NCBI GenBank assembly: GCA_965279035.1
Contig: OZ257142.1
Coordinates: forward strand, 3,232,001 to 3,296,000
Source: Bacteroidia bacterium
Lineage (GTDB): Bacteria > Bacteroidota > Bacteroidia > M30B66
Length of the DNA: 64,000 nucleotides
Direction: 5' to 3'
Below are positions 26,235 to 40,013 of the stretch, in pieces. Numbering within the stretch: the stretch's first letter is position 1; each line of letters starts with the position of its first letter. The translations under genes and the position numbers were made by a program. The notes beneath the pieces were generated by a model that saw only the letters and a list, made by a program, of their open reading frames with translations, was not told the origin of the DNA and did not search any database.

Positions 26235-26722
26235 TACAATTCAGTTTTGAAATTCCTTTGTGATCCAATAGGAAATGTGATCATGTATCCAATTCCATTA
26301 TCGAGTGTTGATCCAATCTCATCGTATTTTATTTCTGAAGTATGGAAATGCTGAAGGAGTTGTCCTTTCCCATTGTTTGAATGACGGTATTGGTTTAGCC
26401 TTTCCATTAGTGCCATTCCAATTACAAGGCATTCATCTCGAACTAATCTATTCAATGTAAATTCTTCTCTTTTACCTTGTTTGAGAACAAATATTTTGGC
26501 TTTTTTAATATCCAAATTGTTAGATCCAACTCCACCAGTTTGCGGACCCATAATAATTGCCGGCCAATGAATACTTCGGTTATTACGAGCTGTTTCAGCT
26601 TCTTCATAACTACCGAAGAAATGGTTTTCTGTATCTGATTGTCCTGTTAAAGCAACACAATCAGTACAAACGAGCTTCAGTAGATCATAAAGATCTTGTT
26701 CACTTAGAATTTTGCTCATCAT
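26234..26722 (-). CDS. Phage tail terminator/completion-like protein
   Basis: Position in tail operon; 162 aa. Confidence 0.45.
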   Translation of the reverse strand: MMSKILSEQDLYDLLKLVCTDCVALTGQSDTENHFFGSYEEAETARNNRSIHWPAIIMGPQTGGVGSNNLDIKKAKIFVLKQGKREEFTLNRLVRDECLVIGMALMERLNQYRHSNNGKGQLLQHFHTSEIKYDEIGSTLDNGIGYMITFPIGSQRNFKTEL

Positions 26723-27537
26723 TTTTTGCTTTTAATTTCCTGTTCATGCTGCTCTTTAGCGCGCATGTCTAGATATTTTAAAATATTGTGCACCGGCTCT
26801 TCCTCCGTCTTTTCACGATTTCCAAAAGGTCCTCCTGAAAGGCTAATTGTTAATGCGTGATAGTCAACAGGAGTTTGTTTTTTCGATTTATTAAAATCAT
26901 TTGCTGGATCCTGTTTTTTGTTAGGAAATAAATTCTTGTAGCTACCAATTACACTTGTTCTAAGTGCTCCATAGTGCATTGCAATTGCAACTTTTAATTC
27001 AATTGGTTTCTTTTTCCACATTGGAATAAAGCGATCGGCATTTACATGATTTTGCCAATCATTTCCTTTGTGAGTTAACTTAAATACAAGTGTGTCTTTA
27101 GGAGTATAGATTAATGCGCACAGAGTGTCCAATGATTCGGCATTTCCTCCAATCCAAGAAGTATAAAATGCATCTACTAGGCACCATCTTCCCCAAGAAA
27201 GATTTTTAAAGCTGTCGTCCATTCCGGTAAAACCTCTAACGGTTTTCATCATGATACCTTTTTTCATGATTGGCTTTTCTAACAGCGGCAATAGCAAATT
27301 GGAAACGCACTGAGAATAAAACTCATCACCAGGTAAATGAAGTCCAATCCAAAGCCAGGACAAACCAGCAATTTCTTTGAACATGATTATGTGTCCTTGG
27401 TCTTCAGGAAGATCTTGCACCTTAGCAATACTGATAAGGTGCCGGTCTTTTAGTTCATCCCAATTCTCAGGAAACTTAAATTTTCGGCTGGCCAATACCT
27501 TAGTATCGGTTTCTTTTCGAATGTCGATATCAAGCAT
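26719..27537 (-). CDS. Phage protein, tail-assembly-chaperone-like
   Basis: FPENWDEL motif; start MLDIDIRK at 27537 overlaps the spanin stop. Confidence 0.5.
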   Translation of the reverse strand: MLDIDIRKETDTKVLASRKFKFPENWDELKDRHLISIAKVQDLPEDQGHIIMFKEIAGLSWLWIGLHLPGDEFYSQCVSNLLLPLLEKPIMKKGIMMKTVRGFTGMDDSFKNLSWGRWCLVDAFYTSWIGGNAESLDTLCALIYTPKDTLVFKLTHKGNDWQNHVNADRFIPMWKKKPIELKVAIAMHYGALRTSVIGSYKNLFPNKKQDPANDFNKSKKQTPVDYHALTISLSGGPFGNREKTEEEPVHNILKYLDMRAKEQHEQEIKSKK

Positions 27538-28060
27538 ACGGCTTTCCCTTTCTGTAGTGCTTCCAATAGTAATATCCTCCAACACCAAGGATTACTAAAA
27601 TTGAAATGACAAATAGCATATCAACAATTAAATTCCACTTTGCGGCTTTAATTTGGTCATTACAATCGCAAGGGATGTGCATCCTTTGATTTATAAGTGA
27701 AGATTCGGACTTGTTTGCGCCTTTAATATTTTGGGCCTTAAAAAACGCTTCTAATGCAATATTTCCATTCTTGCCTCTTGATGCCCGAATTTGAGCCTTT
27801 TCATCTTCTGCAATTATGGTTTGCTTTCCATCTGCAGGGAGTTGTTTAAACCAATCGGGGCATGGACCGCTGAGACCGGATAATTTAAATTCAGGAATTG
27901 TAGTGTCTTTTACAATGAGTGAATAATTATGGTCAATTGAAGCCGGAAATCGTTCAATACATCGGCGCTCCAATGATTTGCATCCAAGTGCAAACAAAGT
28001 AATTAGAACTGCAAATAAATACAGCAAAATCGATAAATAAAGTCGGGTGCTTTTTGTCAT
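27530..28060 (-). CDS. Unimolecular spanin (u-spanin) candidate
   Basis: Lipobox LFALG-C after start MTKSTR at 28060; C-terminal TM helix followed by basic tail; follows the endolysin. Confidence 0.65.
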   Translation of the reverse strand: MTKSTRLYLSILLYLFAVLITLFALGCKSLERRCIERFPASIDHNYSLIVKDTTIPEFKLSGLSGPCPDWFKQLPADGKQTIIAEDEKAQIRASRGKNGNIALEAFFKAQNIKGANKSESSLINQRMHIPCDCNDQIKAAKWNLIVDMLFVISILVILGVGGYYYWKHYRKGKPYA

Positions 28061-28085
28061 GGTTTTATTTAGTTTTTCTATATAA

Positions 28086-28676
28086 TTATTTAGAAACTCT
28101 ACATTTTTTGAATCTAGAAACTCCAAATATTTGCTTGATGTGTCGCCATTTTCGAGCGATCATATTTCCATTTCGTGTTGCTTCTCCATAATTAGCATCA
28201 CCGGTATTGGCTTCGACTGTTTCAACCATATTTCCATGTGATTGATGCCAAAATCCAACATGTCCAATTCTATTTAATTTAGAAAACCATAGGCCGATTA
28301 CATCTCCACGTTCAGGAGTTTGAAATGGCAATGATTTATGTTGCCAATAAATGCGATTTGAAGAGGGGAAAAAGAAAGGAGACCATGCGCTGCGAGGTGT
28401 GCAACAAACTCCCGCAGCTCGAAGAATTGAATCAACGAAACTCGCACAATAAGGACTTCCTTTGGCAGATCCTGTTGAACGAATAATTGCTTCGATTACT
28501 GGTCCATCGTTATGACCAGTTGCTTCTTTTATTCCTACAAAACCGAGATATTCCCAAGCAATTGCATTGGGTTTTACCCTGCAAACTGACTGAGAATAAA
28601 CATGAACAGAGCCATATAGGCAAAAAGCAACCATTGCCGCGATGTAGCGGACATTGAAAAAAACTCGTCTGTACAT
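28086..28676 (-). CDS. CHAP-domain endolysin with N-terminal signal/SAR-like segment
   Basis: SPYCASFV (Cys), GHVGF (His), VEANT; hydrophobic N-terminus. Confidence 0.8.
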   Translation of the reverse strand: MYRRVFFNVRYIAAMVAFCLYGSVHVYSQSVCRVKPNAIAWEYLGFVGIKEATGHNDGPVIEAIIRSTGSAKGSPYCASFVDSILRAAGVCCTPRSAWSPFFFPSSNRIYWQHKSLPFQTPERGDVIGLWFSKLNRIGHVGFWHQSHGNMVETVEANTGDANYGEATRNGNMIARKWRHIKQIFGVSRFKKCRVSK

Positions 28677-28990
28677 AAGTCTCGATTTAAAAGGTATTTA
28701 AAAAGCCAGGGGGCTTGAATTCCAATTCCAAGTTGTGCGAGGTCACCACAAATAATTGCAATGAAAATGCTGGAGAAAATGATTTGGAAAAATGAAGCTG
28801 AAAACTCTAATTCATGACCACCTGAAACTTGCTGAGCAAGTGAGTTGATGTAATCAACTGCAGGAAATGAATAGATAAATAAAATGGCAAAAAGAGGGGT
28901 TGCAATTATTGTTGGCCAGTCGATTAAAAACTGGATGATCTTTCGAAAGATTTTCATTGTATTAGTTTTTGAGTTGTTTTTGTAGATCAA
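28574..28990 (-). CDS. Holin-like membrane protein (~3 TM)
   Basis: Three hydrophobic segments; overlaps the endolysin start. Confidence 0.55.
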   Translation of the reverse strand: MIYKNNSKTNTMKIFRKIIQFLIDWPTIIATPLFAILFIYSFPAVDYINSLAQQVSGGHELEFSASFFQIIFSSIFIAIICGDLAQLGIGIQAPWLFKYLLNRDLCTDEFFSMSATSRQWLLFAYMALFMFILSQFAG

Positions 28991-29348
28991 TGACTTGACG
29001 GGTTAATTCAGCAGATTTCTTTTTCTCACTTTCAAGCTCTTTCATCACATTATCATAAGCTTTTTGAAGCGCTTCAAGGCTTTTTCGAGCAACTTCTTCC
29101 CGCTCCTGGACCATTTCCATTTGATGCTGCAGTGATTCAATTTGCTTAGCCTGGCGTTCTGAAATTTGTTGAAAGAGCTGGCTAATTGTTACATCTGCTT
29201 CAGCTTGTATTTTATTTGCTTCTGCCTGTGTTTTTGATGTTTCCGCAGATCGTTTTGCACGATTTTGTGCACCTCGTATAATGGTTACAAGAATGAACGT
29301 AACTCCACCACCAAAACCAAAGCTTCCAAGCATGCTTATGAACTCCAT
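28962..29348 (-). CDS. Membrane-anchored coiled-coil lysis-cassette protein
   Basis: N-terminal TM (GFGGGVTFILV) followed by coiled coil. Confidence 0.55.
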   Translation of the reverse strand: MEFISMLGSFGFGGGVTFILVTIIRGAQNRAKRSAETSKTQAEANKIQAEADVTISQLFQQISERQAKQIESLQHQMEMVQEREEVARKSLEALQKAYDNVMKELESEKKKSAELTRQVIDLQKQLKN

Positions 29349-29353
29349 TTCAA

Positions 29354-30346
29354 TTAAATTAAAGCGTGAACTCCTGAACCATCTTTATTCTTGAATGGTC
29401 CTCCATTATATAATTCTGGTGCAGCGAAAAGCGGATAGTCGCTTGCATTATCAATGATGAACTTTTGAAGCATTGATAATTGTTCGGGACCAAGTTTTCT
29501 GCAGCTGGCAGAAAGATTTGAAATCTTTTGATCAGGTGCTGCTACTTTTCCTCTTGAAACGTTGCTGTTTACGCTGTTTGAAAGCACAGTGATTCCAAGG
29601 TCGCTCCACTCTACTTCACTTAAAGAAATTGCATCGCCTAAAGCACAGTAGGCAACTGCAGGACGAGCAATATCAATTATTGCTTTGTTTGCAACAGAAA
29701 CAGTGTTCGACTGGATCTGATCTAGAATTTCAGAAAGTAAATTTTTGCCAAGAATAGATGCGAGCTGCTGCGTTTCAATTCTTGTTACATGTGGTTTTAT
29801 GAATCGAAATAAACGGCGCGTAACAAGTACACCAGTCACTAATTCTAATTCAGAAGTTGACCGAACAATTGCACGGGAAAATGCAGTGTATTCTTTTGAA
29901 TTGGTCCAGGTGGAGAACTGATCTTTATTTTGTTCTAAGAATTCAAGAGCTTGCTCAATTCCAGTATATGCATCTCGTAAATATGCATCTAGAGCCTGTG
30001 TAGTATCAAAAGGTTTTGCGTCCTTCTCGTTCTCATTTTCTGTTACACGAATTCCTTGGCTATCAAATGTTACTTTATGCTTTGGAGCATATAGGTAAAT
30101 AGAGTAATTTGCCAATGGAGCTCGAAGCATTTTAATTGCTTCCAATTGAATTGCTGAAGGTGTATCATCATTGAATACATCAATCAGTTCTTTCAAGAAT
30201 TCTCGCCCAATTTCTTTAGATATAAATGCATTTTGAGCATTATATATCTGAGCAGGGAGTTTTACAAAAAACGGATCCATTGCTTTTGAAAGCGGAACGA
30301 ATTCTATGAATTCTTCAAAGGTTTTAAAAAGGGTTCTAAAAGCCAT
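29354..30346 (-). CDS. Head-tail adaptor-like protein (DUF6712-like)
   Basis: Follows portal; two internally similar helical halves. Confidence 0.55.
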   Translation of the reverse strand: MAFRTLFKTFEEFIEFVPLSKAMDPFFVKLPAQIYNAQNAFISKEIGREFLKELIDVFNDDTPSAIQLEAIKMLRAPLANYSIYLYAPKHKVTFDSQGIRVTENENEKDAKPFDTTQALDAYLRDAYTGIEQALEFLEQNKDQFSTWTNSKEYTAFSRAIVRSTSELELVTGVLVTRRLFRFIKPHVTRIETQQLASILGKNLLSEILDQIQSNTVSVANKAIIDIARPAVAYCALGDAISLSEVEWSDLGITVLSNSVNSNVSRGKVAAPDQKISNLSASCRKLGPEQLSMLQKFIIDNASDYPLFAAPELYNGGPFKNKDGSGVHALI

Positions 30347-31653
30347 TAGTTCGCAGGTTGAGCGGTTGGTTTACCTGAAGTCATTGAACTCATAAAAGTG
30401 ATTCCGATTTGAAATTCTAAATCTGAATCCCATCCGTTGTAATCTCTAATTACATAAAGAGGTTCCAGCACTAAATCATGATATGGTTTGATGCTGGCCA
30501 TAAATAAATTATAGGAAGCATTAATGTCGCTTCCGGATCCGGCAGTTTGTCCTTTTCCTTGTATGTGTGGGAAAAGCTGCGGGTCAATATCGAGTGCGTT
30601 GCATAAATGAGCAACAGCTTCTGAAGAGTCTTCTACATAAACACCTGATTTAATTTTATCGTCGATGGATGTTACTCTCCAAGCTATGCGCTCTTCTCCG
30701 CTTTTATCATAATAAAACCCAGTTAACAGGGTTTTCATGGCATTTTTCTGTCCGGATAATTGTTTGTTAAAGTCTTCTACAAACGCTGACTTATGAAGCC
30801 TTTGTTCTTCAGCTGTGAAGTTTGCCCATCCATCATACATATTTGGCCAATACTCTTCATTGACTTCCAAATGATACTTCAGACTGATTTGATTTTTCAT
30901 CATCCATGTTTTGAACTCTGGAATCTGAATTGAGTATTCTAGCCATCCGGAAGAAATCGCACCGTTCCATGCGGCTAATTGATAGAAGTGTTTGCCAGGT
31001 GATGGATAGCTTACAGGGTAAACGAAACGAAAACCGTCTTTTCTGTTTTTAAGCTGACCGGCAGCATCCCAATAAGGATCAATAACAGGAACTGTAATCA
31101 AATCAACGTTGGGATCTCGGTCCCAATTTGCACTAAGAAAGCAGTTTTCGACTAAGCCATTTTCAGGATTTTGCCATTCCCAACGGCAATGACAAGCCTC
31201 TTCAATGAATAATTGAACGATTTGATTTCTATCTAGACTTAATATAAGATTTGGATAGAAATTAACGAACCAATATAAATCGCTGAATGCTTCCATAAGG
31301 TAGCGATTCAGGTTGTTTTTACGTTTAAATTCTTCGAAAAGAGGGTACTTTTCGGGTACAAAAACCTCTTTATTATCAATATACTGTTTGCGTCCAATTT
31401 GAATTCCACCGGCATAAGAAAGCCTTGCTTTGCGATCGATTGCAGGTGCTATAACGGTGCTTTTTGAAGCAGCTTCAACTACTCTTTGCGGAAACAAATT
31501 ATCATCTCCCCAAGGCACCCATTTAGTTCCACCATTTTGTTGAGGAACGGTTGAGCGTGGCTCCGGAATTTTACCACCTGGAGTCATAATGATTCCAGAT
31601 TCAGTTGCAATAATTGTTCTGCCGTTATGTGTGAATGACTTTATCATTACCAA
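30346..31653 (-). CDS. Portal protein
   Basis: WVPWGDDNLFPQ; YPSPGKHFYQLAAW; SGQKNAMK; GSGSD. Confidence 0.8.
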   Translation of the reverse strand: MVMIKSFTHNGRTIIATESGIIMTPGGKIPEPRSTVPQQNGGTKWVPWGDDNLFPQRVVEAASKSTVIAPAIDRKARLSYAGGIQIGRKQYIDNKEVFVPEKYPLFEEFKRKNNLNRYLMEAFSDLYWFVNFYPNLILSLDRNQIVQLFIEEACHCRWEWQNPENGLVENCFLSANWDRDPNVDLITVPVIDPYWDAAGQLKNRKDGFRFVYPVSYPSPGKHFYQLAAWNGAISSGWLEYSIQIPEFKTWMMKNQISLKYHLEVNEEYWPNMYDGWANFTAEEQRLHKSAFVEDFNKQLSGQKNAMKTLLTGFYYDKSGEERIAWRVTSIDDKIKSGVYVEDSSEAVAHLCNALDIDPQLFPHIQGKGQTAGSGSDINASYNLFMASIKPYHDLVLEPLYVIRDYNGWDSDLEFQIGITFMSSMTSGKPTAQPAN

Positions 31654-31928
31654 TTAATTGTATGACCAACTTTTCCAAATTCAACACAGAGAATTAATCG
31701 AATGTGAATTGGATTAGGATGTGCGGTATTACCAGGGGCGCTCACGTTGATCATCTGAAGATTCTTTTGATTAGATTTTGATCCAAGCTTTGTGACATTA
31801 TTTAAAGTGATTATTTCACCACCTTTTTTTCTTCCAGAATCGTAGGTCACGTAAGTGATTCCGAAGGTGATTTTATCACCTCGCTCATCACAATCATCCA
31901 TCTTCTGCAGGGCATCACGTAAGATCAT
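31647..31928 (-). CDS. Small protein preceding the portal
   Basis: FGITYVTYD..KGGE..IHIRLI; ATG 4 nt after a promoter box. Confidence 0.65.
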   Translation of the reverse strand: MILRDALQKMDDCDERGDKITFGITYVTYDSGRKKGGEIITLNNVTKLGSKSNQKNLQMINVSAPGNTAHPNPIHIRLILCVEFGKVGHTINW

Positions 31929-31932
31929 GCAG

Positions 31933-31967
31933 CTAATTTGAAACTCATTAGCCGTTTACTAAAGGAC
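31933..31967 (-). promoter_or_regulatory. Putative late promoter GTCCTTT-N20-CAAATTAG (portal/lysis/tail operon)
   Basis: One of four identically spaced copies at operon starts. Confidence 0.65.
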
Positions 31968-31978
31968 ACAACCGGTTG

Positions 31979-32482
31979 CTAGTTATTCTTTAGTAGAGTT
32001 ACTCTACCATAAATGACTTTTTTCTTAAAAACTATTTGCCAGGAATAAACTCCATCAGGAACAATTTCACCTAGATAATTTCCATCCCAATCATTACCAG
32101 AAAAAATCTGTTCTCCCCATCGATTGAAAATCAACATTTGATATTCAAGTGTTGTCACTGGATGAAACCGATCGTTTATTCCATCACCATTTGGAGTGAA
32201 TGAATTTGGAATCCAAACGTCGACTTCACATGGTTCTAATAAAAGCAGAGTATCGGCTTCTGTTTTACATCCGAATTCTGATACAACTACCAGATGAATT
32301 AAAATACTATCTGCTTCGCTTCGGTCAATAATTATTTCGAGACCATCGACGCTGATCACTGGCGATGATGATGTAAAAAAATAAGCGGAAGCACCATTTG
32401 CCTCCGCTATAACCTTTACAAAATCACATTGTCCGTGACATTGAAAAGCCAATGCCAGAAAAATGAAACTTATCAGCTTCAT
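31979..32482 (-). CDS. Small secreted protein with T9SS type B (gliding-motility-associated) CTD
   Basis: Signal peptide ending CHG-Q; IPNSFTPNGDGINDRF..IFNRWGEQIF..WDG..PDGVYSW. Confidence 0.85.
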   Translation of the reverse strand: MKLISFIFLALAFQCHGQCDFVKVIAEANGASAYFFTSSSPVISVDGLEIIIDRSEADSILIHLVVVSEFGCKTEADTLLLLEPCEVDVWIPNSFTPNGDGINDRFHPVTTLEYQMLIFNRWGEQIFSGNDWDGNYLGEIVPDGVYSWQIVFKKKVIYGRVTLLKNN

Positions 32483-32484
32483 GG

Positions 32485-33057
32485 CTATTGTCGCCTAAAT
32501 CCAATTATTACAGGCGCGGGTTCAATGGTGAATGTTCCTGTGGCCGTTGCACTACAACCGCCTGCTCCTGTTATATTATAAGTTAAGTTATAGGTACCCG
32601 GAACACTTAAGTCAACCGAAGTGCCAGCAGAGCCATTTATCAACCAAGTTCCACCTGCAGGAGTTCCGTATGGAAGCAAAGACAATGTTCCAGTGTGTTG
32701 ACAATCATCTGCAGGAGAAGCAATAGTTGCAGTTAGATCAACCACATTATAATACATTGAACAGTCAAGTGGTGGACAAATTGGAGACAAGGCATTTGCT
32801 TGTGCCCGAATTTGATAAACACCAGCTGTGGCGAAAGTCACCGTCATTGATGTATCACTCATGTTCAAAGTAAAAGGAGCTGCAGGAGTTACAGTCAGAA
32901 CTAGACTGGCTAAATTATAATTGCTCGCATCGAAGTGAACTACTTCTTGTGTTCCAGAGCAAATTAGAATTGTATCACCACATGCGGTCGTTTGGGCAGA
33001 ACTTGTGACGGCCGCCATCAAAAAAGATGCGATCGCCAAGATTTTAAACACTTTCAT
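32485..33057 (-). CDS. Secreted Ig/PKD-like protein, no CTD
   Basis: Signal peptide ending SSA-Q; GTPAGGTW..GTYNLTYNITGAGGCSAT Ig-like repeat. Confidence 0.75.
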   Translation of the reverse strand: MKVFKILAIASFLMAAVTSSAQTTACGDTILICSGTQEVVHFDASNYNLASLVLTVTPAAPFTLNMSDTSMTVTFATAGVYQIRAQANALSPICPPLDCSMYYNVVDLTATIASPADDCQHTGTLSLLPYGTPAGGTWLINGSAGTSVDLSVPGTYNLTYNITGAGGCSATATGTFTIEPAPVIIGFRRQ

Positions 33058-33059
33058 TT

Positions 33060-34448
33060 TTATCCTTCTCGATTAAAATGAGGGTTTGGATTGCAACAGG
33101 AAACAACAGGTACAATTGCTTGAACGGTATCGTTATAGCAAGGAAAATGAGCAATCATCGAAACGGTATAAATCCCGGGTGCTGCATAATTCCATGTAAC
33201 TGAATTTCCGGCATTACTATTTCCATCACCAAAAAGCCAAACAATGGGAGTGCTGAAATTTGCACATGCAGGAGCTGCTATTGTTGGAGCTGTTAAATGA
33301 ATGCTTAGGCAATTCACATTGTAAGTAAATGGCTGTAGTATGGGTCGATTATAAAAGGAGGCATAGTTCGGAAGTCCAAATGTGGACGATCGCCCTAATA
33401 AAGAAACTGCACCACTAGTAAAACCACATCCTGATCCAATAACATTTGGATTATTTATAACCGATAGAAATGAATTATTTCTAGAGAGATATATTTTACC
33501 ATCAGGTCCAAGCTGCATTGATCCCATAAATGGACCAGTACTGGCAACCTGGTATCTTGATAATTGGATTTGTGTTTGTGTTCCGGCGCAAAGGTTGAAT
33601 TGAATTAGATTTCCTCCATTTGTGGATGCGTATGCAAGCCTACTATCGGGAGAAAATTCACATCCGTATGCTCCGGTTTCGGATGAGAGTAAAAAACCAC
33701 CAGAGACAACTCCGGTGGTATTTGAAAAATTATGGACTTCAACTTTGTTCGTGCCATTTCCGGCTAAACCATACCAACTGGAAAGTATTCGATTTCCTTC
33801 TAGGTTGGTTTTTAGTTGACCATATTTACTTTGGGCAATTCCTGTAATTACAGATCCAGAATTACTGACAACTGGAGGGGAAATTCCTGCAGAAGTAACT
33901 AACCAGGATCGGAATGCATTAGTGTTCCAGTCGTGGGTTAGAACCCAAACATCGCGGTTGTTGCAATGCCTGATGGCAGTCAATTTTTCGCATGATGGTG
34001 TCTGAAGTAAAACATTCTTTGTGGTAATGGCTCCAAGTCCTGCAGATAATGAAAGATCAACTTCGGAATATCGAATTCCATTGGGTCCAACATCTGCATC
34101 GGAAGTAAATATATACCAACCATTTGCGCTACCAGGCTTATCAATGATGATTGCCGATTGAGTTGATGAGGCGTGCCCAAGCAATCCGGTACCATTAGCC
34201 ATTACAGCGTGTAATCGATTCCAAACCGTAACTCCGTCAGTGTAAAATAACAGATTACCAGAAGCGTCGCACATGGTTGCGCAACCTTCAGTAGTTACGA
34301 GCTGACCATCGGTAAGTGCAACGGGTGGTCCAGAGGCAAAAGTTACACCGGCTTTATTTCCAAAATACCAGATGTTTGATTGCTGAGCGCTTAGCGTCAA
34401 GGCAATCAAGCAGACAAAGCTGCTAAGAAAAATTCTCATGTTTTTCAT
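33060..34448 (-). CDS. Secreted beta-propeller + PKD protein, no CTD
   Basis: Signal peptide ending LSA-Q; NIWYFG..GNLLFYTDG..YGCEFSPD..QLGPDGKIY..GLPN propeller; WLFGDG..PGIYTV PKD. Confidence 0.8.
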   Translation of the reverse strand: MKNMRIFLSSFVCLIALTLSAQQSNIWYFGNKAGVTFASGPPVALTDGQLVTTEGCATMCDASGNLLFYTDGVTVWNRLHAVMANGTGLLGHASSTQSAIIIDKPGSANGWYIFTSDADVGPNGIRYSEVDLSLSAGLGAITTKNVLLQTPSCEKLTAIRHCNNRDVWVLTHDWNTNAFRSWLVTSAGISPPVVSNSGSVITGIAQSKYGQLKTNLEGNRILSSWYGLAGNGTNKVEVHNFSNTTGVVSGGFLLSSETGAYGCEFSPDSRLAYASTNGGNLIQFNLCAGTQTQIQLSRYQVASTGPFMGSMQLGPDGKIYLSRNNSFLSVINNPNVIGSGCGFTSGAVSLLGRSSTFGLPNYASFYNRPILQPFTYNVNCLSIHLTAPTIAAPACANFSTPIVWLFGDGNSNAGNSVTWNYAAPGIYTVSMIAHFPCYNDTVQAIVPVVSCCNPNPHFNREG

Positions 34449-34470
34449 GGGTTTTAATTGGTTTAAAACC

Positions 34471-34505
34471 CAACATTACGCTCATAAAAAAACAGTAGAA
34501 AGGAC
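34471..34505 (-). promoter_or_regulatory. Putative late promoter GTCCTTT-N20-TAATGTTG driving the T9SS cassette
   Basis: Same motif and spacing as the three morphogenesis promoters. Confidence 0.65.
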
Positions 34506-34519
34506 AGAAATTATTCTTC

Positions 34520-34804
34520 TTACTTTATAGTATAACTGAATAACCAACCATAATAATCATCATAACAGAAGCGAAGATTATAAATCGTTTTATCACTTCC
34601 GGAATAGCTTTCAATTTCATAAACATAACCATGAACGGGGCATTGTGGCAATAGCTCAATATTAATTAGTGATATAAGTTTCAATGATATTCCGGTGGAT
34701 GTTTTTGCGATAAAATGGCTCATAAATAAGTTTATAATAGCGGGTTTCTTTTGCTCCTTTTCTTTGACCGAACAAAGAAAAGGAGTCCGGTTGGATTGCT
34801 CCAC
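34520..34804 (-). CDS. Hypothetical protein (start uncertain)
   Basis: Short ORF downstream of the ArdC-like gene. Confidence 0.35.
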   Translation of the reverse strand: MEQSNRTPFLCSVKEKEQKKPAIINLFMSHFIAKTSTGISLKLISLINIELLPQCPVHGYVYEIESYSGSDKTIYNLRFCYDDYYGWLFSYTIK

Positions 34805-34827
34805 CGGATTCCCTCTTGTTTTGGCTT

Positions 34828-35166
34828 TTACTTCTCTCCTATTGGCTTAACTTGCTTGTTTGAGAATAAAAAGCAAAGCGGGAAAAACTGTCTTCCTTCG
34901 GGGTTGGCTTCAATGCCTTGTTCCTCTTGCTGTTTGCTTAGGGGTTTTCCCCAAATGTAAAAGGCTTGCGCTCCTTTGTTGACTTGGAAACCATCGCGTT
35001 TCCATTGGTCGTATGTTTTAAATTCGTTGTTCCCATCGTGGGTGTAAACTTTCAAAAGTATTGCTTCGTTTACGTTTTTAAATTCTCCCGCTTCTACCAG
35101 TGGTCGAACTTTGCTGCTCAATTCTAATAAATGAGCGCGTTTTTCTTTAATGTTTAGGGTTTCCAT
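34828..35166 (-). CDS. ArdC-like N-terminal ssDNA-binding domain protein (standalone)
   Basis: FKTYDQWKRDGFQVNKGAQAFYIWGKP..LFSNKQV. Confidence 0.7.
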   Translation of the reverse strand: METLNIKEKRAHLLELSSKVRPLVEAGEFKNVNEAILLKVYTHDGNNEFKTYDQWKRDGFQVNKGAQAFYIWGKPLSKQQEEQGIEANPEGRQFFPLCFLFSNKQVKPIGEK

Positions 35167-35177
35167 AGTGTTAAGAT

Positions 35178-35624
35178 TTAAAGGATTACTTCGTCTGCGA
35201 ATGAATAGTAACTGTAAGGGGTTACAATTACATGGTCTAGAAGTTGGATGTCGTTGTAATAGGCTGCATGCTTAATGTTTTGGGTTAATTTTATATCTGC
35301 ATCGCTCGGCTGTGTGTTTCCGCTTGGATGATTATGAAGCAGAATAATTGCACAGGCGTTGCCTAAAATTGCAGTTTGCAGAATAATTTTTGTGTCTGCG
35401 ACCGTTCCGGAAATTCCTCCCTGACCTATTTTTTTCCAACCTAAAACCCTGTTGTTTCGATTTAGTATTATCATCATGAATGATTCACAATGTTCTAGTG
35501 TGTCGGGGTTGAAAATCTCACGTATTGCCAAATCATAAATGTCTTTCGAGTTTAGAATTTGCTTGCGTTGGGATGGTGGTATTTTGGGTGACTTATAAAT
35601 AAGTTCTACTTCTGAAATCTGCAT
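35178..35624 (-). CDS. RadC-like JAB domain protein
   Basis: ESFMMIILNRNNRV; GGISGT; HNHPSGNTQPSDAD; LLDHVIV. Confidence 0.9.
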   Translation of the reverse strand: MQISEVELIYKSPKIPPSQRKQILNSKDIYDLAIREIFNPDTLEHCESFMMIILNRNNRVLGWKKIGQGGISGTVADTKIILQTAILGNACAIILLHNHPSGNTQPSDADIKLTQNIKHAAYYNDIQLLDHVIVTPYSYYSFADEVIL

Positions 35625-35626
35625 AA

Positions 35627-35842
35627 CTAACGGGATTTAGGATTAATAATATTTGAAAACGTATCGGTGAAAATTGCCTGAATAAACTCACATATTAGAG
35701 TTCTCCGTTTTTTCTCTTGTCCTAAAGCCGTTGCAGGGCGTTTGATTGAATTGTTTACTTTTGTCATGTTCATTTTATCAAAGGGTGAATAATTGCCTTG
35801 TTGGGGATAGCCGTCCTTGACAAGGTTTTTTCTTTTAGGCAT
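35627..35842 (-). CDS. Hypothetical protein
   Basis: 71-aa basic ORF directly upstream of the RadC-like gene. Confidence 0.4.
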   Translation of the reverse strand: MPKRKNLVKDGYPQQGNYSPFDKMNMTKVNNSIKRPATALGQEKKRRTLICEFIQAIFTDTFSNIINPKSR

Positions 35843-36047
35843 AGTTCGCCCATGCCATTAATGGCGCTTTTGTTCTATCTCATTGATTGTGTGGTTTTTA
35901 GTTTCTAATATTCTATAAATTTAAAGAAATCAAACCGAAAAAACAAATTTTAAACGAATTTAATTAATTGATTATCAGTATATTATAAATATTTATACCC
36001 TTTTTTACCTGTTTTGGTATAGCAAAACAATTTAACTATTTGACTAC

Positions 36048-36089
36048 CAATTTATAAGAAGTTCTATTTTCTGAACTTCTTATAAATTG
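36048..36089. repeat. Perfect 17-bp inverted repeat with 8-bp spacer
   Basis: CAATTTATAAGAAGTTC-tattttct-GAACTTCTTATAAATTG. Confidence 0.85.
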
Positions 36090-36274
36090 CCCCTGTAAAG
36101 GCAGCCACGCCCTGCGGTGTCGCGGCGATCGCCTCGGACGGGTTTTGGCGATATATGGGCGTGCCCCCTATACACACGCCCCCTTACATTGCCCTATTTC
36201 AGGGCATTGCAAGAGGGCAACCGATATGATTGAGTTGTTATTGGGTAGGCGATCGCCAACAGGAGGGAGGCTGG

Positions 36275-37939
36275 CTAGAGAATACCGGCGCTGAATCCAC
36301 TTGTGTTCGCTCCTAGCCTATTTGAATACTTATGGTATAATAATACATCAACACCATCAGATAGATGGGGCGCAAGTGCTTGGTCAATATGCTTGTTACG
36401 CTCTGCGCTTTTATCCTTTTCAAACCCATTGCGTCCTTGCTTGATAGGTGCCATGCGCATAGAGTTGTGTGTTTCTCTGCAGTTATCAGGGTGCATTCTA
36501 AAGCGTGGCAGCTGTGGATCCTTTTCACCTAATATGGCATTCATAAATACATACTTCACATGATGGTTGGGAGCTGCTCCCATGTAGTGCATTATAACCT
36601 TCCATCCGGCTTTGGTAAAACCTGATTGAAACTCATCAGCATAGTTCCATTCAACTAAGCCATCCTTACCAATGGCTGTTTGATCGTACCAGAAGTGTAT
36701 GACTTTGGTGCGGTGTGTTGCCAAGTAGTTCACAGCTTTCTTCACTACATCACGAAATAGATCAGGATGGTAAACCTTCAGACTATTAACAATGCGCTCT
36801 TCATCATCATACTCCTGGCTTAAATGGATGCAATTGAATGATCCTCCAAAGTCAGCTGCTGAATGTATGGGTAATGATGGATTGATGGAAGGCTCGTCGA
36901 TTGCGGTTACCTCCTGCCCTATTTCAATATTATACTGATCAGTATCAATCTTGTAGAAATGATGATCGCCAAGGGCAGGGTAGAAGCCCTGCTCCATCAT
37001 TACCATGATTGAGTTGAGAATTTCAATCTGAAACATCAAATCGCTCATTGAAGCTCTCAGCTGCTTCACATATCTCCAACCTGGTAAATTCTGAATGTTG
37101 TCGAAGATATCAGCATCACAGAAGTAAGTACTAAGCTTCTCTCCGGAAACAGGTATTATATCCGTGTGTTTAAAGAATTTCCATTCCTGTTTCAACTTAT
37201 ATGCTTGCTTCCAGAGCATTTCGATTTTATCAACAGAATCGGAATCAACAATTTCAAGAAGAATGCTAGAAAGGGCAACGCGGTAATCTTGATAGGACCA
37301 TCCATAGTCTTTGTAATAATCGGCTGCATCTAAGAGCCACATTGCTTCAGGAAGAAATGGCATCGAGCTGACAATCAACTCGCTTAAATGATAACGTGAA
37401 TTCGCAAATGGACCATTTGCATTGGCTCGGTTAGCGATCGCGACTTCTGTTTCAATTCGTTCTCGAGAAAGGTTCAACCCTTCATCGCCCATATACGAGT
37501 CGATATTGAAACCGCGAGAGGATCCTTTTCTCTCCTGGCTCACGATATGATACATTGCTCCGTTGGGAAAAGAGATTGTGTGTTTCCAGTTCTGAACTAC
37601 TGGGAAAATTGGTCTTCCCCAACTTTTGGGTGGTTCTTTTCCAATCACGTAGTTCATTCCCTCATGTATTCCGTGCATTGATAAGCCGGCAACGATAGCT
37701 GGAAGTGTTCTGGTAAATGCTTGAATGTAAGTAGCACAAACCAATGCGTTTGCGCTTCCTGGCATTGTGCGAACTACCTCTTTCATGACATAGGCCATGA
37801 AAGTTGTTTTACCGGTACCACGTCCTGCAATGATGCGATTACGGTTGCTGTAATTAATCGTGGCCAGCAACTGCCAACGATTCATTTTCAATGGAATGAA
37901 ATCACTCATTATTTGAAGTCCTTCCTTGCAATAACTCAA
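36275..37939 (-). CDS. terL: Terminase large subunit
   Basis: Walker A AGRGTGKT; Walker B MGDEG; nuclease AADFG..YDQTA..HLSDGVD. Confidence 0.88.
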   Translation of the reverse strand: MSYCKEGLQIMSDFIPLKMNRWQLLATINYSNRNRIIAGRGTGKTTFMAYVMKEVVRTMPGSANALVCATYIQAFTRTLPAIVAGLSMHGIHEGMNYVIGKEPPKSWGRPIFPVVQNWKHTISFPNGAMYHIVSQERKGSSRGFNIDSYMGDEGLNLSRERIETEVAIANRANANGPFANSRYHLSELIVSSMPFLPEAMWLLDAADYYKDYGWSYQDYRVALSSILLEIVDSDSVDKIEMLWKQAYKLKQEWKFFKHTDIIPVSGEKLSTYFCDADIFDNIQNLPGWRYVKQLRASMSDLMFQIEILNSIMVMMEQGFYPALGDHHFYKIDTDQYNIEIGQEVTAIDEPSINPSLPIHSAADFGGSFNCIHLSQEYDDEERIVNSLKVYHPDLFRDVVKKAVNYLATHRTKVIHFWYDQTAIGKDGLVEWNYADEFQSGFTKAGWKVIMHYMGAAPNHHVKYVFMNAILGEKDPQLPRFRMHPDNCRETHNSMRMAPIKQGRNGFEKDKSAERNKHIDQALAPHLSDGVDVLLYHKYSNRLGANTSGFSAGIL

Positions 37940-38525
37940 TAATGTTTTCTGGAATTAGATCTGAATGGATCTGCTGTTCAATGATTTTATATTCACTTTC
38001 GGGTAGTTCATGAATCTTCTCTAAGTCAATATTCTTAGGGCGACCGCCAGTCATTGTCAGATTCAAAATGTAGGTATTGCTCTGTGCCTTGGATGGATCA
38101 AATGGCTCTTCTGTTTGCTCAATCATCTTAAGAAGCTCCATTCGTGTTTTCATCAGTGCATTCCCGTTTTTAGCATCACCTTCTAACATAGCCTTGTCAA
38201 GCATCTGAAGATTCATCGCCAGAAGCAATTGCAAGCCATAGGATTTGTCTAATAGCGATAGAGCGTTAAATAGATACTTTGCAGTTATTAAATCATTCCT
38301 AGCGGTTGATAGAGATATTTCAGGAAACTTCCTTCTGAGAAGTTCAATAACAACGCGGTCAGTTTTGCGAGATCGCAGCTGATCGTCCGCAAAATTTACT
38401 CGATCGAGTATTTTTTTCTCCTGGTCAGAAATCTCAACCGGCTTTCCATGGACATAGTCATAAAGCCGTTCAATTTTAGCGCGGTCTTCAGGAAGAATAT
38501 CGTGCAGCTTCATAATTAAGTTCAA
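37902..38525 (-). CDS. Terminase small subunit candidate
   Basis: HTH-like EISLSTARND; helical; immediately upstream of terL. Confidence 0.6.
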   Translation of the reverse strand: MNLIMKLHDILPEDRAKIERLYDYVHGKPVEISDQEKKILDRVNFADDQLRSRKTDRVVIELLRRKFPEISLSTARNDLITAKYLFNALSLLDKSYGLQLLLAMNLQMLDKAMLEGDAKNGNALMKTRMELLKMIEQTEEPFDPSKAQSNTYILNLTMTGGRPKNIDLEKIHELPESEYKIIEQQIHSDLIPENIIELLQGRTSNNE

Positions 38526-38811
38526 TATCTAGTTGATACTTTTTGATCAATTCAAGGGCATCTTTAATTGCTGGTGTGGATCCAGAAGCTGCAGCAGTAA
38601 TGATTGCTTTTCGCACATCTGCTTTAGCTCGTAATTGCCCCCTATTTACTGCTTTGCTGATATCAGATTCAACATTGAATACCTCACGGGCAAAGCTGTC
38701 AAGGTCAACTTCTAAAATGAGTGCGATTTCAGAAATCGACATCATTGAATAGCTGAATTGCTCTACTTCTTTTAGTTCTGCTTCAGATATCGACATATTT
38801 TGCGAGCTCAT
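38488..38811 (-). CDS. Small helical protein of the packaging operon
   Basis: SISEIALILEV HTH-like; AASGSTPA. Confidence 0.55.
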   Translation of the reverse strand: MSSQNMSISEAELKEVEQFSYSMMSISEIALILEVDLDSFAREVFNVESDISKAVNRGQLRAKADVRKAIITAAASGSTPAIKDALELIKKYQLDIELNYEAARYSS

Positions 38812-39346
38812 TTTCTATCCAGGAAATATGTGAGTTAGCAGCTGAAGAACTTGTATCAATTACGCCAGCTTCAATTCTTTTGATTTTGCTCCAATTTTGA
38901 CTGCCGACAACTGTAATGGACCATGATTCATTCTTAATGATCATTACCTTAGCGTGTATCTCAGCAAGGGCAAGGCGTGTACTATTTAAAGTCAATAATT
39001 GAAGAGCTTCAGGGCAGTTGACTTTTATTCGATTTGAGACAATAGCTGTCAGCTGCTTTATGTATCCTGATCGCTTCAATTCAATTAAGATAGAAGCTGG
39101 AGCTGTGGTTATGCTCCAGGTTGTAAACCATACATCAGCAGGACCGGTTTTCTTTAATAAAAAGCGCAACAAATCGTGAGTGCTCCAACGCTTGTTGTTT
39201 ACATAGTGTTGACTGGTTTCAGGCTTCAATTCAGAGATAAATTCCTTCAGAGAATTTTCGATAAAAATTTGTTCAGTGGATCCACCCAAAAAAACTGAAG
39301 TAACAGAATCAGAAGCCTGGTGTAGTTCATCGCTTTTCAAGAGCAT
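38783..39346 (-). CDS. Single-domain phospholipase D-like (HxK) protein, possible nuclease
   Basis: TTWSI; IHAKVMII..VVGSQNWS..RIEAG. Confidence 0.7.
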   Translation of the reverse strand: MLLKSDELHQASDSVTSVFLGGSTEQIFIENSLKEFISELKPETSQHYVNNKRWSTHDLLRFLLKKTGPADVWFTTWSITTAPASILIELKRSGYIKQLTAIVSNRIKVNCPEALQLLTLNSTRLALAEIHAKVMIIKNESWSITVVGSQNWSKIKRIEAGVIDTSSSAANSHISWIENELAKYVDI

Positions 39347-39974
39347 GCTCTACCTCCTTCCATTTTGCTAGTAATTCATCCGCTTTAATCTTCTTCTCGG
39401 GTAACTTACTTACTTTACTATACTGCTTTTTGATGTTTTCTAGCCTCTTTGCCAGCTCTAAAGCATTTAATTGGGATAAATCCTCAATCTTGTCAACTTC
39501 GCCTTTTTTACGAGAGCCTGTCGCTTGAAATTGCTCTAGTTCAAGCCAGATTTCATCCTGCTCCTTAAAATTCTCGACAATTGTTTTTGCGAGTTGGAAT
39601 CTTTGTTCAATTGTCTTAGCTGATTTGAGATCCTGAAAGCAAGATTTGGAATGCATAAACAAGGCGTTTTTCTGCCTGTTTTTCTCTTTCAAATCATCAG
39701 GAAGAGCATTTACATCAATGTGGATGAATTTGCTTTCTGAAGTGGCTAAAAATTCATTTACTGGAGGAATTTTCTCTTTTGGTGGTGGCGATCGCCTTTC
39801 AACAACAACAGAATTAATTTTGATAAGCTCTTCCTTTAACTTATCTCTTGTGAAGGATGATTCTGTGGTAAAAAGCTTTTTAAGTAGATCGCTTTTCCCA
39901 TGAGTGTTGAATAACTCAACTCCTTTCGAATAATTAAAAGGTGCTCTAAGCCAATCTTCTATTGCGCTGATCAT
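39327..39974 (-). CDS. Phage hypothetical protein, first gene of packaging operon
   Basis: IEDWL..YSKGVELF N-terminus; ATG 4 nt after a promoter box. Confidence 0.65.
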   Translation of the reverse strand: MISAIEDWLRAPFNYSKGVELFNTHGKSDLLKKLFTTESSFTRDKLKEELIKINSVVVERRSPPPKEKIPPVNEFLATSESKFIHIDVNALPDDLKEKNRQKNALFMHSKSCFQDLKSAKTIEQRFQLAKTIVENFKEQDEIWLELEQFQATGSRKKGEVDKIEDLSQLNALELAKRLENIKKQYSKVSKLPEKKIKADELLAKWKEVEHALEKR

Positions 39975-39978
39975 GCTG

Positions 39979-40013
39979 CAATAGTAATAGGCGATCGCCT
40001 TATTCTAAAGGAC
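39979..40013 (-). promoter_or_regulatory. Putative late promoter GTCCTTT-N20-TACTATTG (packaging operon); spacer contains GGCGATCGCC
   Basis: Same motif and spacing as the other three copies. Confidence 0.65.

What the first reader, a model, noticed from the sequence alone, without database searches (positions are those of the whole stretch)
31979..34505. Prophage-encoded split T9SS surface-protein cassette under a phage late-type promoter
Seen: three tightly spaced genes (2-nt gaps) sit between terL and portal. Each has its own signal peptide exposing an N-terminal Gln. They encode an NIWYFG beta-propeller+PKD protein (462 aa), an Ig-like protein (190 aa) and a 167-aa protein that is little more than a type B T9SS CTD. 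Established: host cargo usually carries such domains on one polypeptide ending in the CTD (compare 1080-2972 in this window), and type B CTDs need a PorP/SprF-type partner, which is absent here. Separate signal peptides argue against decay of a single gene. Seen: the cassette is preceded by the same GTCCTTT-N20-box motif as the head, packaging and portal operons. Inference: this is a phage-made modular adhesin or receptor mask. The two CTD-less subunits, which end in short tails (NPHFNREG, PVIIGFRRQ), may piggy-back on the CTD-only carrier through the host T9SS, or the free CTD may jam the T9SS/gliding machinery during lytic growth. This is my best candidate for an undescribed system.
Basis: partly seen in the sequence, partly recalled or inferred. 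Interest (0 to 1): 0.85.

Follow-up and report, generated by a model that had tools for sequence, protein, structure and literature searches.

The report
Phage-borne three-part T9SS surface protein
A prophage carries three small secreted-protein genes (head, stalk, anchor) that together look like one bacterial surface adhesin cut into pieces; the same cut-up set recurs in many uncultured phages, which suggests that phages display a snap-together protein on their host's surface.

Summary
Three minus-strand genes with 2-nt gaps encode A (462 aa, 7-bladed propeller + PKD), B (190 aa, two Ig/PKD-like stalk repeats) and C (167 aa, Ig + type B T9SS CTD). Each has a Q-rule-type signal peptide. They lie between terL and portal of a 39.7-kb prophage integrated in the tmRNA gene.

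This is not a decayed gene. In 79 bacterial-genome loci, none of 92 propeller ORFs was a complete short form. In 16 viral loci, 15 were short. Across viral and metagenome loci there are 43 distinct adjacent B-C pairs plus one C-A-B locus, in orders A-B-C, B-C-A, C-A-B or other-head-B-C. No short C that had room upstream lacked a B-like ORF.

New here: every CTD-less member ends in a short, lineage-specific C-terminal tail (..SVYTN/..IYTD, ..PINHN/..PIQHN; in this window ..HFNREG/..GFRRQ). In fused phage relatives this tail is colinear with the linker between domains.

Best reading: a modular phage cell-surface display complex. Tails dock the subunits, and only the anchor carries the secretion and anchoring signal. 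Assembly, export and the benefit to the phage are inferred. The "late promoter" is not established. New variant of a known kind; interest is fairly high.

The parts
13687..53443 (-). Prophage of about 39.7 kb. It is bounded by 28-nt direct repeats (13687-13714, the 3' end of the tmRNA gene, and 53416-53443; 27 of 28 identical). The integrase is at 13667-14977 (+).
   Evidence: tmRNA, repeat D4; integrase, tape-measure protein, ParB; terL, portal, endolysin.
34449..34519 (-). 71-nt spacer upstream of gene A. It holds GTCCTTT (34499-34505) and, 20 nt downstream, TAATGTTG. Possible promoter, unproven.
33060..34448 (-). Gene A, the head: signal peptide (residues 1-21, cleavage ..LSA|QQ), 7-bladed beta-propeller (about 25-365), PKD-like domain (about 372-448), free C-terminal tail ..CCNPNPHFNREG.
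   Evidence: AF2 model pLDDT 89 with the tail 455-462 below 50; best PDB match 1L0Q; more than 2300 relatives.
33063..33104 (-). Coding stretch for the last 14 residues of A, the C-terminal tail.
   Evidence: Tail classes in 101 short A proteins. The window's tail is shared with its 85%-identical relative P0002.
32485..33057 (-). Gene B, the stalk: signal peptide (1-21, ..SSA|QT), two Ig/PKD-like domains, tail ..EPAPVIIGFRRQ.
   Evidence: The second domain is the repeat unit of giant adhesins, with up to 74 matched stretches in one protein. Family members match PKD_6, PKD_4 and Ig_7.
32488..32514 (-). Coding stretch for the last 9 residues of B, the C-terminal tail.
   Evidence: B tails co-vary with the tails of the neighbouring head proteins.
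31979..32482 (-). Gene C, the anchor and carrier: signal peptide (1-17, ..CHG|QC), a six-stranded Ig-like domain (21-81), then a type B T9SS CTD.
   Evidence: AF2 model pLDDT 86.5; tandem-Ig matches in the PDB including the RgpB CTD 5ag8 at rank 22.
31994..32212 (-). Type B CTD of C, residues 91-163.
   Evidence: TIGR04131 42.7 bits (cut-off 35); PF13585 46.2 bits (cut-off 27).
31929..31978 (-). 50-nt spacer downstream of C and upstream of the 93-aa ORF and portal. It holds a second GTCCTTT (31961-31967).
36275..37939 (-). Large terminase, the upstream landmark.
   Evidence: phrog_2 E 7.3e-6; Walker A GRGTGKT in the translation.
30346..31653 (-). Portal, the downstream landmark.
   Evidence: phrog_11226 E 1.5e-7.

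Best explanation
The three genes are one functional module that occurs widely in phages of Bacteroidota. It is a T9SS-addressed cell-surface protein made of separate parts.

Proposed steps:
1. Each part is exported to the periplasm by Sec; the signal peptides are of the Q-rule type.
2. C is the carrier. Its type B CTD is the only T9SS signal, and by analogy with SprB/SprF and PG1035/PorP it would also anchor the product to a host PorP/SprF-type outer-membrane shuttle encoded elsewhere in the host genome.
3. B supplies two stalk repeats of the kind found in giant gliding adhesins.
4. A supplies an interchangeable head, here a YVTN-like propeller plus PKD.
5. A and B each end in a short conserved tail that descends from the inter-domain linker of fused relatives. 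I infer that the tail docks onto an Ig domain of the next subunit, in the manner of donor-strand or edge-strand pairing.
6. The folded A-B-C complex would then leave through the T9SS translocon and be displayed on the infected or lysogenic cell.

Likely benefit to the phage: remodelling the host surface, by masking or displacing a receptor adhesin (superinfection exclusion, protection of progeny) or by changing adhesion and gliding.

What is shown and what is inferred: the genes, domains, signal peptides, CTD, conservation, gene linkage, tail tag and colinearity with fused forms are shown. Docking, co-export, anchoring and the benefit to the phage are inferred.
For: 1. Phage versus host split. 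In 79 bacterial-genome loci, 92 ORFs carry the propeller. None is a complete ORF under 520 aa; the 4 short ones touch a locus end. Of the 74 complete ORFs, 57 hold a type B CTD in the same ORF, and there is no stand-alone B or C. In 16 IMG/VR loci, 15 propeller ORFs are under 520 aa.

2. Linkage. Viral plus metagenome loci give 43 distinct adjacent B-C pairs and one C-A-B locus. The 43 pairs divide as 17 A-B-C, 2 B-C-A, 14 other-head(tail)-B-C, 1 B-C-other-head, 8 without a strictly matching tailed neighbour and 1 at a contig edge.

3. An unbiased set. Loci L096-L175 were fetched by C similarity alone. Of 29 distinct short C proteins, 24 have a full B directly upstream, 3 have a partial B-like ORF, 2 sit at an edge, and 0 lack a B-like ORF where there is room.

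4. Signal peptides. A crude hydrophobic N-terminus test is met by 42 of 43 B and 43 of 43 C proteins. The Gln after the cleavage site is conserved. For the Q-rule I saw only the search listing and abstract starts of PMC5837995 and PMC10653852.

5. Tail tag. Of 101 short A proteins, the last residue is N, Q or E in 95, position -4 is I or V in 92, and position -3 is Y in 73. Of 49 same-strand neighbours flanking 30 distinct B-C pairs, 22 end in the same tail class as B. Among 860 other genes of the same loci, 9 end in any tail class. In this window the tails are A ..HFNREG and B ..GFRRQ.

6. Fused relatives. In fused phage proteins of 734-819 aa, the sequence at the B-to-C junction (for example PQPTLDSISPYNPFYEICEGD) is colinear with the split B tail (SQPVLSPIQHN-stop) followed by the mature C start (QQEIEICGEE).

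7. Models. The A tail is unstructured in the monomer model, with pLDDT under 50 for residues 455-462. The N-terminal domain of C shows six strands.

8. Tree. The short forms cluster: the 'short' label needs 3 changes against a shuffled mean of 18.3, and 0 of 500 shuffles are as low.

9. Literature. T9SS moves folded proteins (PMC9251779, passages). A type B CTD suffices for secretion and targeting, and orphan CTDs use a shared shuttle (PMC12618676, abstract and sections 10 and 12). Type B cargo is held on PorP-like proteins (PMC9143113, abstract).
Against: - No direct evidence of binding. The only complex job ended without a verdict (see Tried and rejected).
- No expression data.
- No whole genome is held, so a host PorP/SprF shuttle and a core T9SS could not be checked. 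Only two type A and one type B CTD host proteins in the window show that the host uses T9SS.
- At the head-to-B junction, mature B keeps its own residues before the conserved Cys. There is therefore no obvious missing strand there, and the six-strand count for C rests on DSSP alone.
- Twelve short A proteins of tail class GPIYK[QE] have no B-C pair in their fetched locus, which reached up to 8-10 kb to each side where the contig allowed. Linkage is therefore not universal.
- Tail co-variation within a phage lineage could reflect shared descent or a host-lineage receptor rather than co-evolution with C.
- 'Viral' status rests on IMG/VR classification. Few hallmark genes were recognised near the modules, and no isolated phage in INPHARED carries A.
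Confidence: 0.5

Rival explanations
1. Three independent secreted proteins. Only C uses the T9SS. A and B work in the periplasm, or are released at lysis. Their common tail is a signal read by a host factor (an unknown short C-terminal sorting, retention or protease-protection tag), not by C.
For: - No binding is shown (one search gave no verdict).
- A proteins of the GPIYK[QE] class occur without a B-C pair in their fetched locus: 12 distinct proteins.
- The tail classes could follow host lineages.
- Mature B keeps its own N-terminal segment before the conserved Cys.
Against: - The tails are colinear with the covalent linkers of fused head-stalk-anchor proteins.
- Heads with matching tails sit next to B-C far more often than chance would give: 22 of 49 neighbours against 9 of 860 background genes.
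- Short C is never found without a B-like ORF upstream where there is room: 0 of 29.
- B consists only of stalk repeats typical of surface adhesins. That makes little sense for a free periplasmic protein.
Confidence: 0.22
2. Decoy or jam. The point of the module is C's CTD, which competes with host type B cargo (for example a SprB-like adhesin that serves as phage receptor) for its PorP/SprF shuttle or for the translocon. A and B are accessory.
For: - Type B CTD and shuttle pairs are specific and few, so they could be saturated (PMC12618676, sections 10 and 12).
- C is small and carries a full CTD.
- L086 and L087 carry C proteins whose CTD motifs look degenerate by eye in the alignment.
Against: - C always comes with B and usually with a head.
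- Fused phage versions keep head, stalk and CTD in one protein. That points to display of the head rather than mere blocking.
- The head is strongly conserved, with 46 invariant columns in 70 sequences.
Confidence: 0.12
3. Decay. A single host-derived T9SS cargo gene, broken by two mutations in this prophage, is on its way to loss.
For: The closest bacterial relatives of A are fused genes of 2000-2620 aa at 55-61% identity. The three parts add up to the domain order of ordinary cargo.
Against: - Each piece has its own start codon and signal peptide with a conserved Gln.
- The same three-gene layout occurs in dozens of divergent loci. A proteins there are 47-61% identical to the window's; the aligned B and C proteins are 17-38% identical to the window's. 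Three different gene orders occur.
- A relative with 85% (A) and 92% (B) identity keeps the same ORF lengths (459 and 190 aa) and the same tails.
Confidence: 0.02

Closest known systems
Type B T9SS cargo with PorP/SprF-type shuttles (SprB/SprF, Fjoh_3952/3951, PG1035/PorP)
   Same: A Sec signal peptide plus a C-terminal TIGR04131/PF13585 domain. The stalk is built of the same Ig/PKD-like repeats. The head, stalk and CTD order is the same when the three products are read in series (PMC12618676; PMC9143113).
   Different: Known cargo is one polypeptide. Here the head, stalk and CTD carrier are separate genes, each with its own signal peptide. The CTD-less parts carry a conserved C-terminal tail. 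The module is encoded by phages, and no shuttle gene lies next to it.
Phage-encoded T9SS cargo of 'Cryophage' (Bellas et al. 2020, PMC7468147; passages read)
   Same: A phage carries host-like proteins addressed to the host's T9SS. The authors proposed roles in competition or superinfection.
   Different: Those are type A sorting domains on single enzymes or a PA14 protein. No split genes, no type B CTD and no tail tag are described in the passages I read.
Fused phage head-stalk-CTD proteins of 732-819 aa (L103, L141, L142, L170 and others; also in the 634,780-bp 'uncultured phage' record LR745206.1)
   Same: They share B-like and C-like regions over 83-93% of the profiles. They are colinear with split B plus C, and they lie in phage contigs.
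   Different: They are one ORF with one signal peptide. The head is a different family (N-terminus QYCPxLGPDQ...). The linkers are more variable than the split tails.
Hitch-hiker export (Tat PaoABC) and donor-strand complementation in pili (chaperone-usher pili, type V pili of Bacteroidota)
   Same: As a way of working: partners without a signal ride on one that has it (PMC4273604, abstract start only). A short terminal strand of one subunit completes an Ig-like fold of the next (recalled, not from a call).
   Different: No homology. Neither mechanism has been described for T9SS in the papers my searches found. Strand donation here is inferred only.
Tandem YVTN beta-propeller + PKD of an archaeal S-layer protein (PDB 1L0Q)
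   Same: It is the best structural match to the A model (Foldseek E 1.5e-14) and has the same two-domain order.
   Different: 14% identity and TM-scores of 0.39/0.45. It is a general surface-protein fold and gives no functional assignment.

Membership tests
T9SS type B CTD cargo (TIGR04131 / PF13585 CHU_C) | C-terminal type B sorting domain above the curated cut-off | tested here: met
   C residues 91-163: TIGR04131 42.7 bits (cut-off 35); PF13585 46.2 bits (cut-off 27). A and B have no CTD.
T9SS type B CTD cargo (TIGR04131 / PF13585 CHU_C) | N-terminal Sec signal peptide | tested here: met
   Read from the sequence: a basic residue, a hydrophobic core, and a small residue followed by Gln in A, B and C. 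The pattern is conserved in relatives. No dedicated predictor was available.
T9SS type B CTD cargo (TIGR04131 / PF13585 CHU_C) | Cognate PorP/SprF-like shuttle, often encoded next to the cargo | tested here: not met
   No PorP_SprF match in 29 window ORFs or in 10 neighbours of phage modules. The whole genome is not held. Orphan cargo with a distant shuttle is known (PMC12618676), so this does not exclude membership.
T9SS type B CTD cargo (TIGR04131 / PF13585 CHU_C) | T9SS-dependent secretion or surface anchoring | not testable with these tools
   Needs fractionation or surface labelling in wild type against a T9SS mutant.
Integrated temperate phage (prophage) | Integrase, att repeats at a tRNA or tmRNA gene, packaging, tail and lysis genes | tested here: met
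   tmRNA 13323-13711; 28-nt repeats at 13687 and 53416; integrase, tape-measure protein and ParB; terL, portal and endolysin.
Phage moron (independently expressed cargo cassette) | Own promoter and terminator; absence from close relatives of the phage | tested here: inconclusive
   The spacers of 71 and 50 nt carry a shared heptamer, but there is no convincing promoter or terminator. No relatives of the portal or terL were found for comparison.
Donor-strand / strand-complemented Ig assemblies | The acceptor Ig domain lacks a strand, which a short terminal segment of the partner supplies | tested here: inconclusive
   The N-terminal domain of C has six DSSP strands. The tails are unstructured in the monomer model and colinear with linkers of fused forms. 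No contact information was obtained, and the complex job gave no verdict.
PKD domain (PF18911 / PF00801) in A | Score at or above the Pfam gathering cut-off | tested here: not met
   26.0 against 27 bits, and 22.1 against 23.5. Relatives are precomputed as PF18911/PF00801, and the model shows a beta-sandwich after the propeller. It is PKD-like in fold and falls just under the cut-off by score.

The most novel reading that the evidence does not exclude
The T9SS can export non-covalent hetero-oligomers. Phages have exploited this by cutting an adhesin into Sec-exported head, stalk and anchor subunits. The subunits re-join in the periplasm through short, lineage-specific C-terminal docking tails. 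Only the anchor carries the CTD, and heads of unrelated folds (155-490 aa) can be swapped onto the same stalk-anchor pair. That would be a plug-and-play system by which phages display proteins on the cell surface to mask receptors or re-programme host adhesion. It would also be the first hitch-hiker route and the first short docking tag described for type IX secretion.
Probability: 0.35. Interest if true: 0.85.

Novelty: new variant of a known kind. Interest (0 to 1): 0.72.

Why it matters
T9SS cargo is understood as single polypeptides that end in a CTD. A conserved multi-gene cargo in which only one subunit has the CTD would mean either co-export of assembled complexes or a second, tail-based targeting step. 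Both are directly testable with three small proteins.

For phage biology, it points to a common but unstudied way in which Bacteroidota phages alter the host surface. The carriers range from 40-kb temperate phages to records over 600 kb. Consequences are likely for superinfection, gliding and adhesion, and host range in lakes, soils and sludge.

The tails together with the stalk-anchor pair could also serve as a small tool for displaying proteins on Bacteroidota.

Tried and rejected
- Complex prediction of mature A+B+C with B as partner: the verdict was 'no answer'. The score was 0.51; with B replaced it was 0.00 twice; with A replaced it was 0.59.
- RNA evidence: no RNA holder was listed. Four DNA-type runs from one study hold the stretch.
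- Whole-genome search: no genome is held.
- B alone by word search: only 2 hits.
- B profile against 1.84 billion representatives: the list was swamped by giant repeat proteins, so it gave no list of short B proteins.
I used the C alignment instead.
- Relatives of this prophage through portal and terL: none found. Whether the trio is an insertion relative to sister phages therefore stays open.
- A against 50,697 GenBank phage records: no match.
- PHROGs on A, B and C: no family.
- PHROGs and Pfam on neighbours of the modules in other phages: almost nothing recognisable, and no PorP/SprF.
- Sigma-70-type promoter and terminator scan: uninformative for Bacteroidota.
- Comparison with the host type B cargo at 1080-2972: only the CTD aligns, at 34% over 59 aa, and the heads are unrelated.
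- Rejected idea, virion component: Sec signal peptides plus a T9SS CTD argue against assembly in the cytoplasm.
- Rejected idea, frameshift or read-through fusion: each downstream gene starts with its own signal peptide.
- Supplementary files of the papers were not consulted (closed). Supplementary Fig. 4 of PMC12618676 (CTD models) might bear on the motif comparison.
Full report
**What is there.** On the minus strand, three ORFs follow each other with 2-nt gaps, each in a different frame. They are A at 33060-34448 (462 aa), B at 32485-33057 (190 aa) and C at 31979-32482 (167 aa). The junctions read TAA-AA-ATG and TAG-CC-ATG. Each product starts with a basic residue and a hydrophobic core, followed by a small residue and then Gln (..LSA|QQ..SSA|QT..CHG|QC). 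This is the pattern of the Bacteroidetes Q-rule; for PMC5837995 and PMC10653852 I saw only the search listing and abstract starts. No signal-peptide predictor was available. The support is therefore the sequence itself and its conservation: Gln is invariant in 9 of 9 B sequences and nearly invariant in A and C.

**Domains.**
- C matches the type B T9SS sorting domain above both curated cut-offs (PF13585 46.2/27 bits; TIGR04131 42.7/35 bits). Its AF2 model (pLDDT 86.5) has a six-stranded Ig-like domain (residues 21-81) in front of the CTD. PDB matches are tandem Ig modules, including the RgpB CTD at rank 22.
- A models with pLDDT 89 as a propeller plus a beta-sandwich with an unstructured last eight residues. 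The best PDB match is 1L0Q, a YVTN propeller + PKD from an archaeal S-layer protein.
- B is made of two Ig/PKD-like domains. A profile of B finds 16,749 proteins. The top hits are giant proteins of 2-7 thousand residues with up to 74 matched stretches to B's second domain. B-family members match PKD_6, PKD_4 and Ig_7, the 'CHU_C associated' Ig domain.
- Read in series, the three products have the layout head, stalk, Ig, CTD of an ordinary type B adhesin.

**Setting.** The genes lie in a prophage of about 39.7 kb. It is bounded by 28-nt direct repeats at 13687-13714 (the 3' end of the tmRNA gene) and 53416-53443, with an integrase next to the tmRNA. Upstream lie terL (36275-37939), RadC, an ArdC-N-like ORF and a 94-aa ORF. 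Downstream lie a 93-aa ORF and the portal. The host uses T9SS: the window holds one type B and two type A CTD host proteins. No PorP/SprF-like protein was found among the 29 window ORFs scanned. The rest of the genome is not held.

**Is it a broken gene? No.**
- A has more than 2300 relatives in the 254-809 aa range. Of the best 120 listed, 101 are 440-480 aa long and end just after the PKD domain.
- In 79 loci from species-representative bacterial genomes, 92 ORFs contain the propeller. None is a complete short form: the four under 520 aa all touch a locus end. Of the 74 complete ORFs, 57 carry a type B CTD in the same ORF. No stand-alone B or C occurs.
- In 16 IMG/VR loci, 15 propeller ORFs are short.
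- Profile mapping shows the three genes together in orders A-B-C (L080-82, L085-87 and many metagenome loci), B-C-A (L083/84, L090, L198, L208) and C-A-B (L220).
- In a tree of the head domain, the 'short' label needs 3 changes against 18.3 for shuffled labels (0 of 500 shuffles as low). The window's A sits with its 85% relative in a subclade of five other short forms plus one long-branched fused protein, P0079. That subclade is in an unresolved three-way split with a clade of 14 host proteins of 2000-2620 aa (P0003 and P0010, shorter and one of them partial, also fall in it) and a clade of 17 short forms.
But the split, the starts and the signal peptides are conserved across many divergent phage lineages. 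That rules out recent decay.

**The core of the module is the B-C pair.**
- Loci fetched only by similarity to C (240 viral stretches matched, 80 kept) hold 62 distinct CTD-bearing ORFs. Twenty-nine are short C proteins. Of these, 24 have a full B directly upstream, 3 have a partial B-like ORF, 2 sit at an edge, and none lacks a B-like ORF where there is room.
- Over all viral and metagenome loci there are 43 distinct B-C pairs: 17 A-B-C, 2 B-C-A, 14 with a different head upstream, 1 with one downstream, 8 without a strictly matching tailed neighbour and 1 at an edge. There is also one C-A-B locus.
- The 'other heads' are signal-peptide proteins of 155-490 aa that do not match the A profile.
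- Sixteen of the 33 long CTD proteins in the same set have a B-like stalk in the same ORF. These are fused versions of 734-819 aa. One of 732 aa lies in the 634,780-bp GenBank 'uncultured phage' record LR745206.1.

**The tails.**
These turn out to be a conserved tag.
- Among 101 short A proteins, the last residue is N, Q or E in 95, position -4 is I or V in 92, and position -3 is Y in 73. There are a few discrete classes..S[VI]YTN..GPIYK[QE]..INHN..INL[NQ].
- B tails follow the class of the neighbouring head..SVYTN with ..TIYTD..INHN with ..IEHN..IQHN or ..ISHN..SINLN with ..VIQIN..IITIN with ..TITIN. In this window it is ..HFNREG with ..GFRRQ.
- The unrelated heads carry the same tag, for example ..GPINHN next to ..SPIQHN.
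- Of 49 neighbours flanking 30 distinct B-C pairs, 22 share B's tail class. Only 9 of 860 other genes in those loci end in any such class.
- In the fused relatives, the B-to-C linker is colinear with the split B tail plus the mature start of C. The head-to-B linker (..VGPIIYS|DTVCY) is colinear with the head tail.
- The tails are thus former inter-domain linkers that have become strongly conserved free C-termini. C, the only member with a CTD, has no such tail.

**How it most likely works.** The reasoning runs in four steps, all of them inference.
1. T9SS substrates cross the outer membrane folded (PMC9251779, passages).
2. [quoted passage not shown] Type B cargo stays bound to PorP-like proteins (PMC9143113, abstract).
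3. The simplest reading is therefore that the three Sec-exported parts assemble in the periplasm through their tails, leave through the translocon on C's CTD, and are held on a host SprF-like shuttle with the head displayed.
4. The module occurs both in a temperate phage (this window) and in contigs with replication genes. Those contigs range up to the very large 'uncultured phage' records. The benefit is therefore probably not lysogenic conversion alone. Masking or displacing a receptor adhesin, protecting progeny, or changing adhesion and gliding of the infected cell are the candidates. I cannot choose among them.

**What argues against this, and what is open.**
- There is no evidence of binding; the single complex job gave no verdict.
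- There are no expression data.
- There is no view of the host's shuttles.
- Mature B keeps residues before its first conserved Cys, so a missing strand is not evident at that junction.
- Twelve short A proteins of one tail class lie without a B-C pair in their fetched locus.
- Tail co-variation could reflect descent or host lineage.
- Viral status rests mostly on IMG/VR. Few hallmark genes were recognisable near the modules, and no isolated phage carries A.

**Promoter claim.** GTCCTTT is not enriched overall (10 found, 8.3 expected). Its four minus-strand copies inside the prophage all sit within 60 nt upstream of a start codon: the trio, the 93-aa ORF and portal, and the genes starting at 39974 and 44243. 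Only two of the four have a TAnnnTTG box 18-20 nt downstream. A shared regulatory element is possible. Calling it a late promoter is not justified.

**Novelty.** Phage-encoded T9SS cargo has been reported once, as fused type A proteins of 'Cryophage' (PMC7468147, passages). P. gingivalis phages were noted to encode Q-rule signal peptides (PMC10367356, passages). My full-text searches found no description of split type B cargo, of a C-terminal tail tag, or of hitch-hiker export by the T9SS. These searches cover only the open-access library. I rate the finding as a new variant of a known kind.

Noticed in passing
window 13323-13714 and 53416-53443: The prophage is integrated in the 3' end of the tmRNA (ssrA) gene. 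The 28-nt att repeats match at 27 of 28 positions, which gives an element of about 39.7 kb. A 39,925-bp metagenome contig carries the closest A (85%) and B (92%) relatives.
   Followed up: partly
window 51943-52017 (-): A tRNA-Met (CAT) gene lies inside the prophage, between the ParB-like gene and the leftward early region.
   Followed up: no
window, 8 sites (11888, 33029, 36125, 36249, 37434, 39788, 39991, 51507): The palindrome GCGATCGC occurs 8 times against 0.28 expected (0 of 100 shuffles reach 8). Seven of the sites are inside the prophage. It resembles the HIP1 palindrome (recalled) or a restriction/methylation site.
   Followed up: partly
window 34828-35624 (-): RadC-like JAB protein (PF04002, E 2e-35) and a short ArdC-N-like ORF lie between terL and the trio. 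They are likely anti-restriction or counter-defence cargo in the same insertion-prone interval.
   Followed up: no
window 35843-36274: A 432-nt non-coding stretch lies downstream of terL. It has a GC-rich part with two GCGATCGC sites and an inverted repeat, followed by an AT-rich part. Function unknown.
   Followed up: no
window 55041-62734 (+): Host genes for a 2253-aa beta-helix / ice-binding-like protein and a 311-aa protein lie just outside attR. Both have type A T9SS tails (PF18962).
   Followed up: no
L081 13971-14744, L085 13966-14742, L086 12280-13059, L087 10571-11350: A conserved signal-peptide protein of 257-259 aa (N-terminus MKP.N.L...; no Pfam match for the two that were scanned) recurs a few genes downstream of the trio in four phage loci. 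In L086 and L087 it lies near long fibre-like ORFs.
   Followed up: partly
L080 8048-9128, L082 12537-13601: Tandem paralogous ORFs of about 105-120 aa (N-terminus MDIIVD.PQLVR / MNIQVNKHQLERV) flank the trio in two related phage loci.
   Followed up: no
L086 5348-5902, L087 3427-3978: In the ..INLN lineage, the C proteins have a CTD whose usual motifs look degenerate by eye (for example YYAANAVVPDGYYN where others have IPNSFTPNGD), although they still match the C profile at full length.
   Followed up: no
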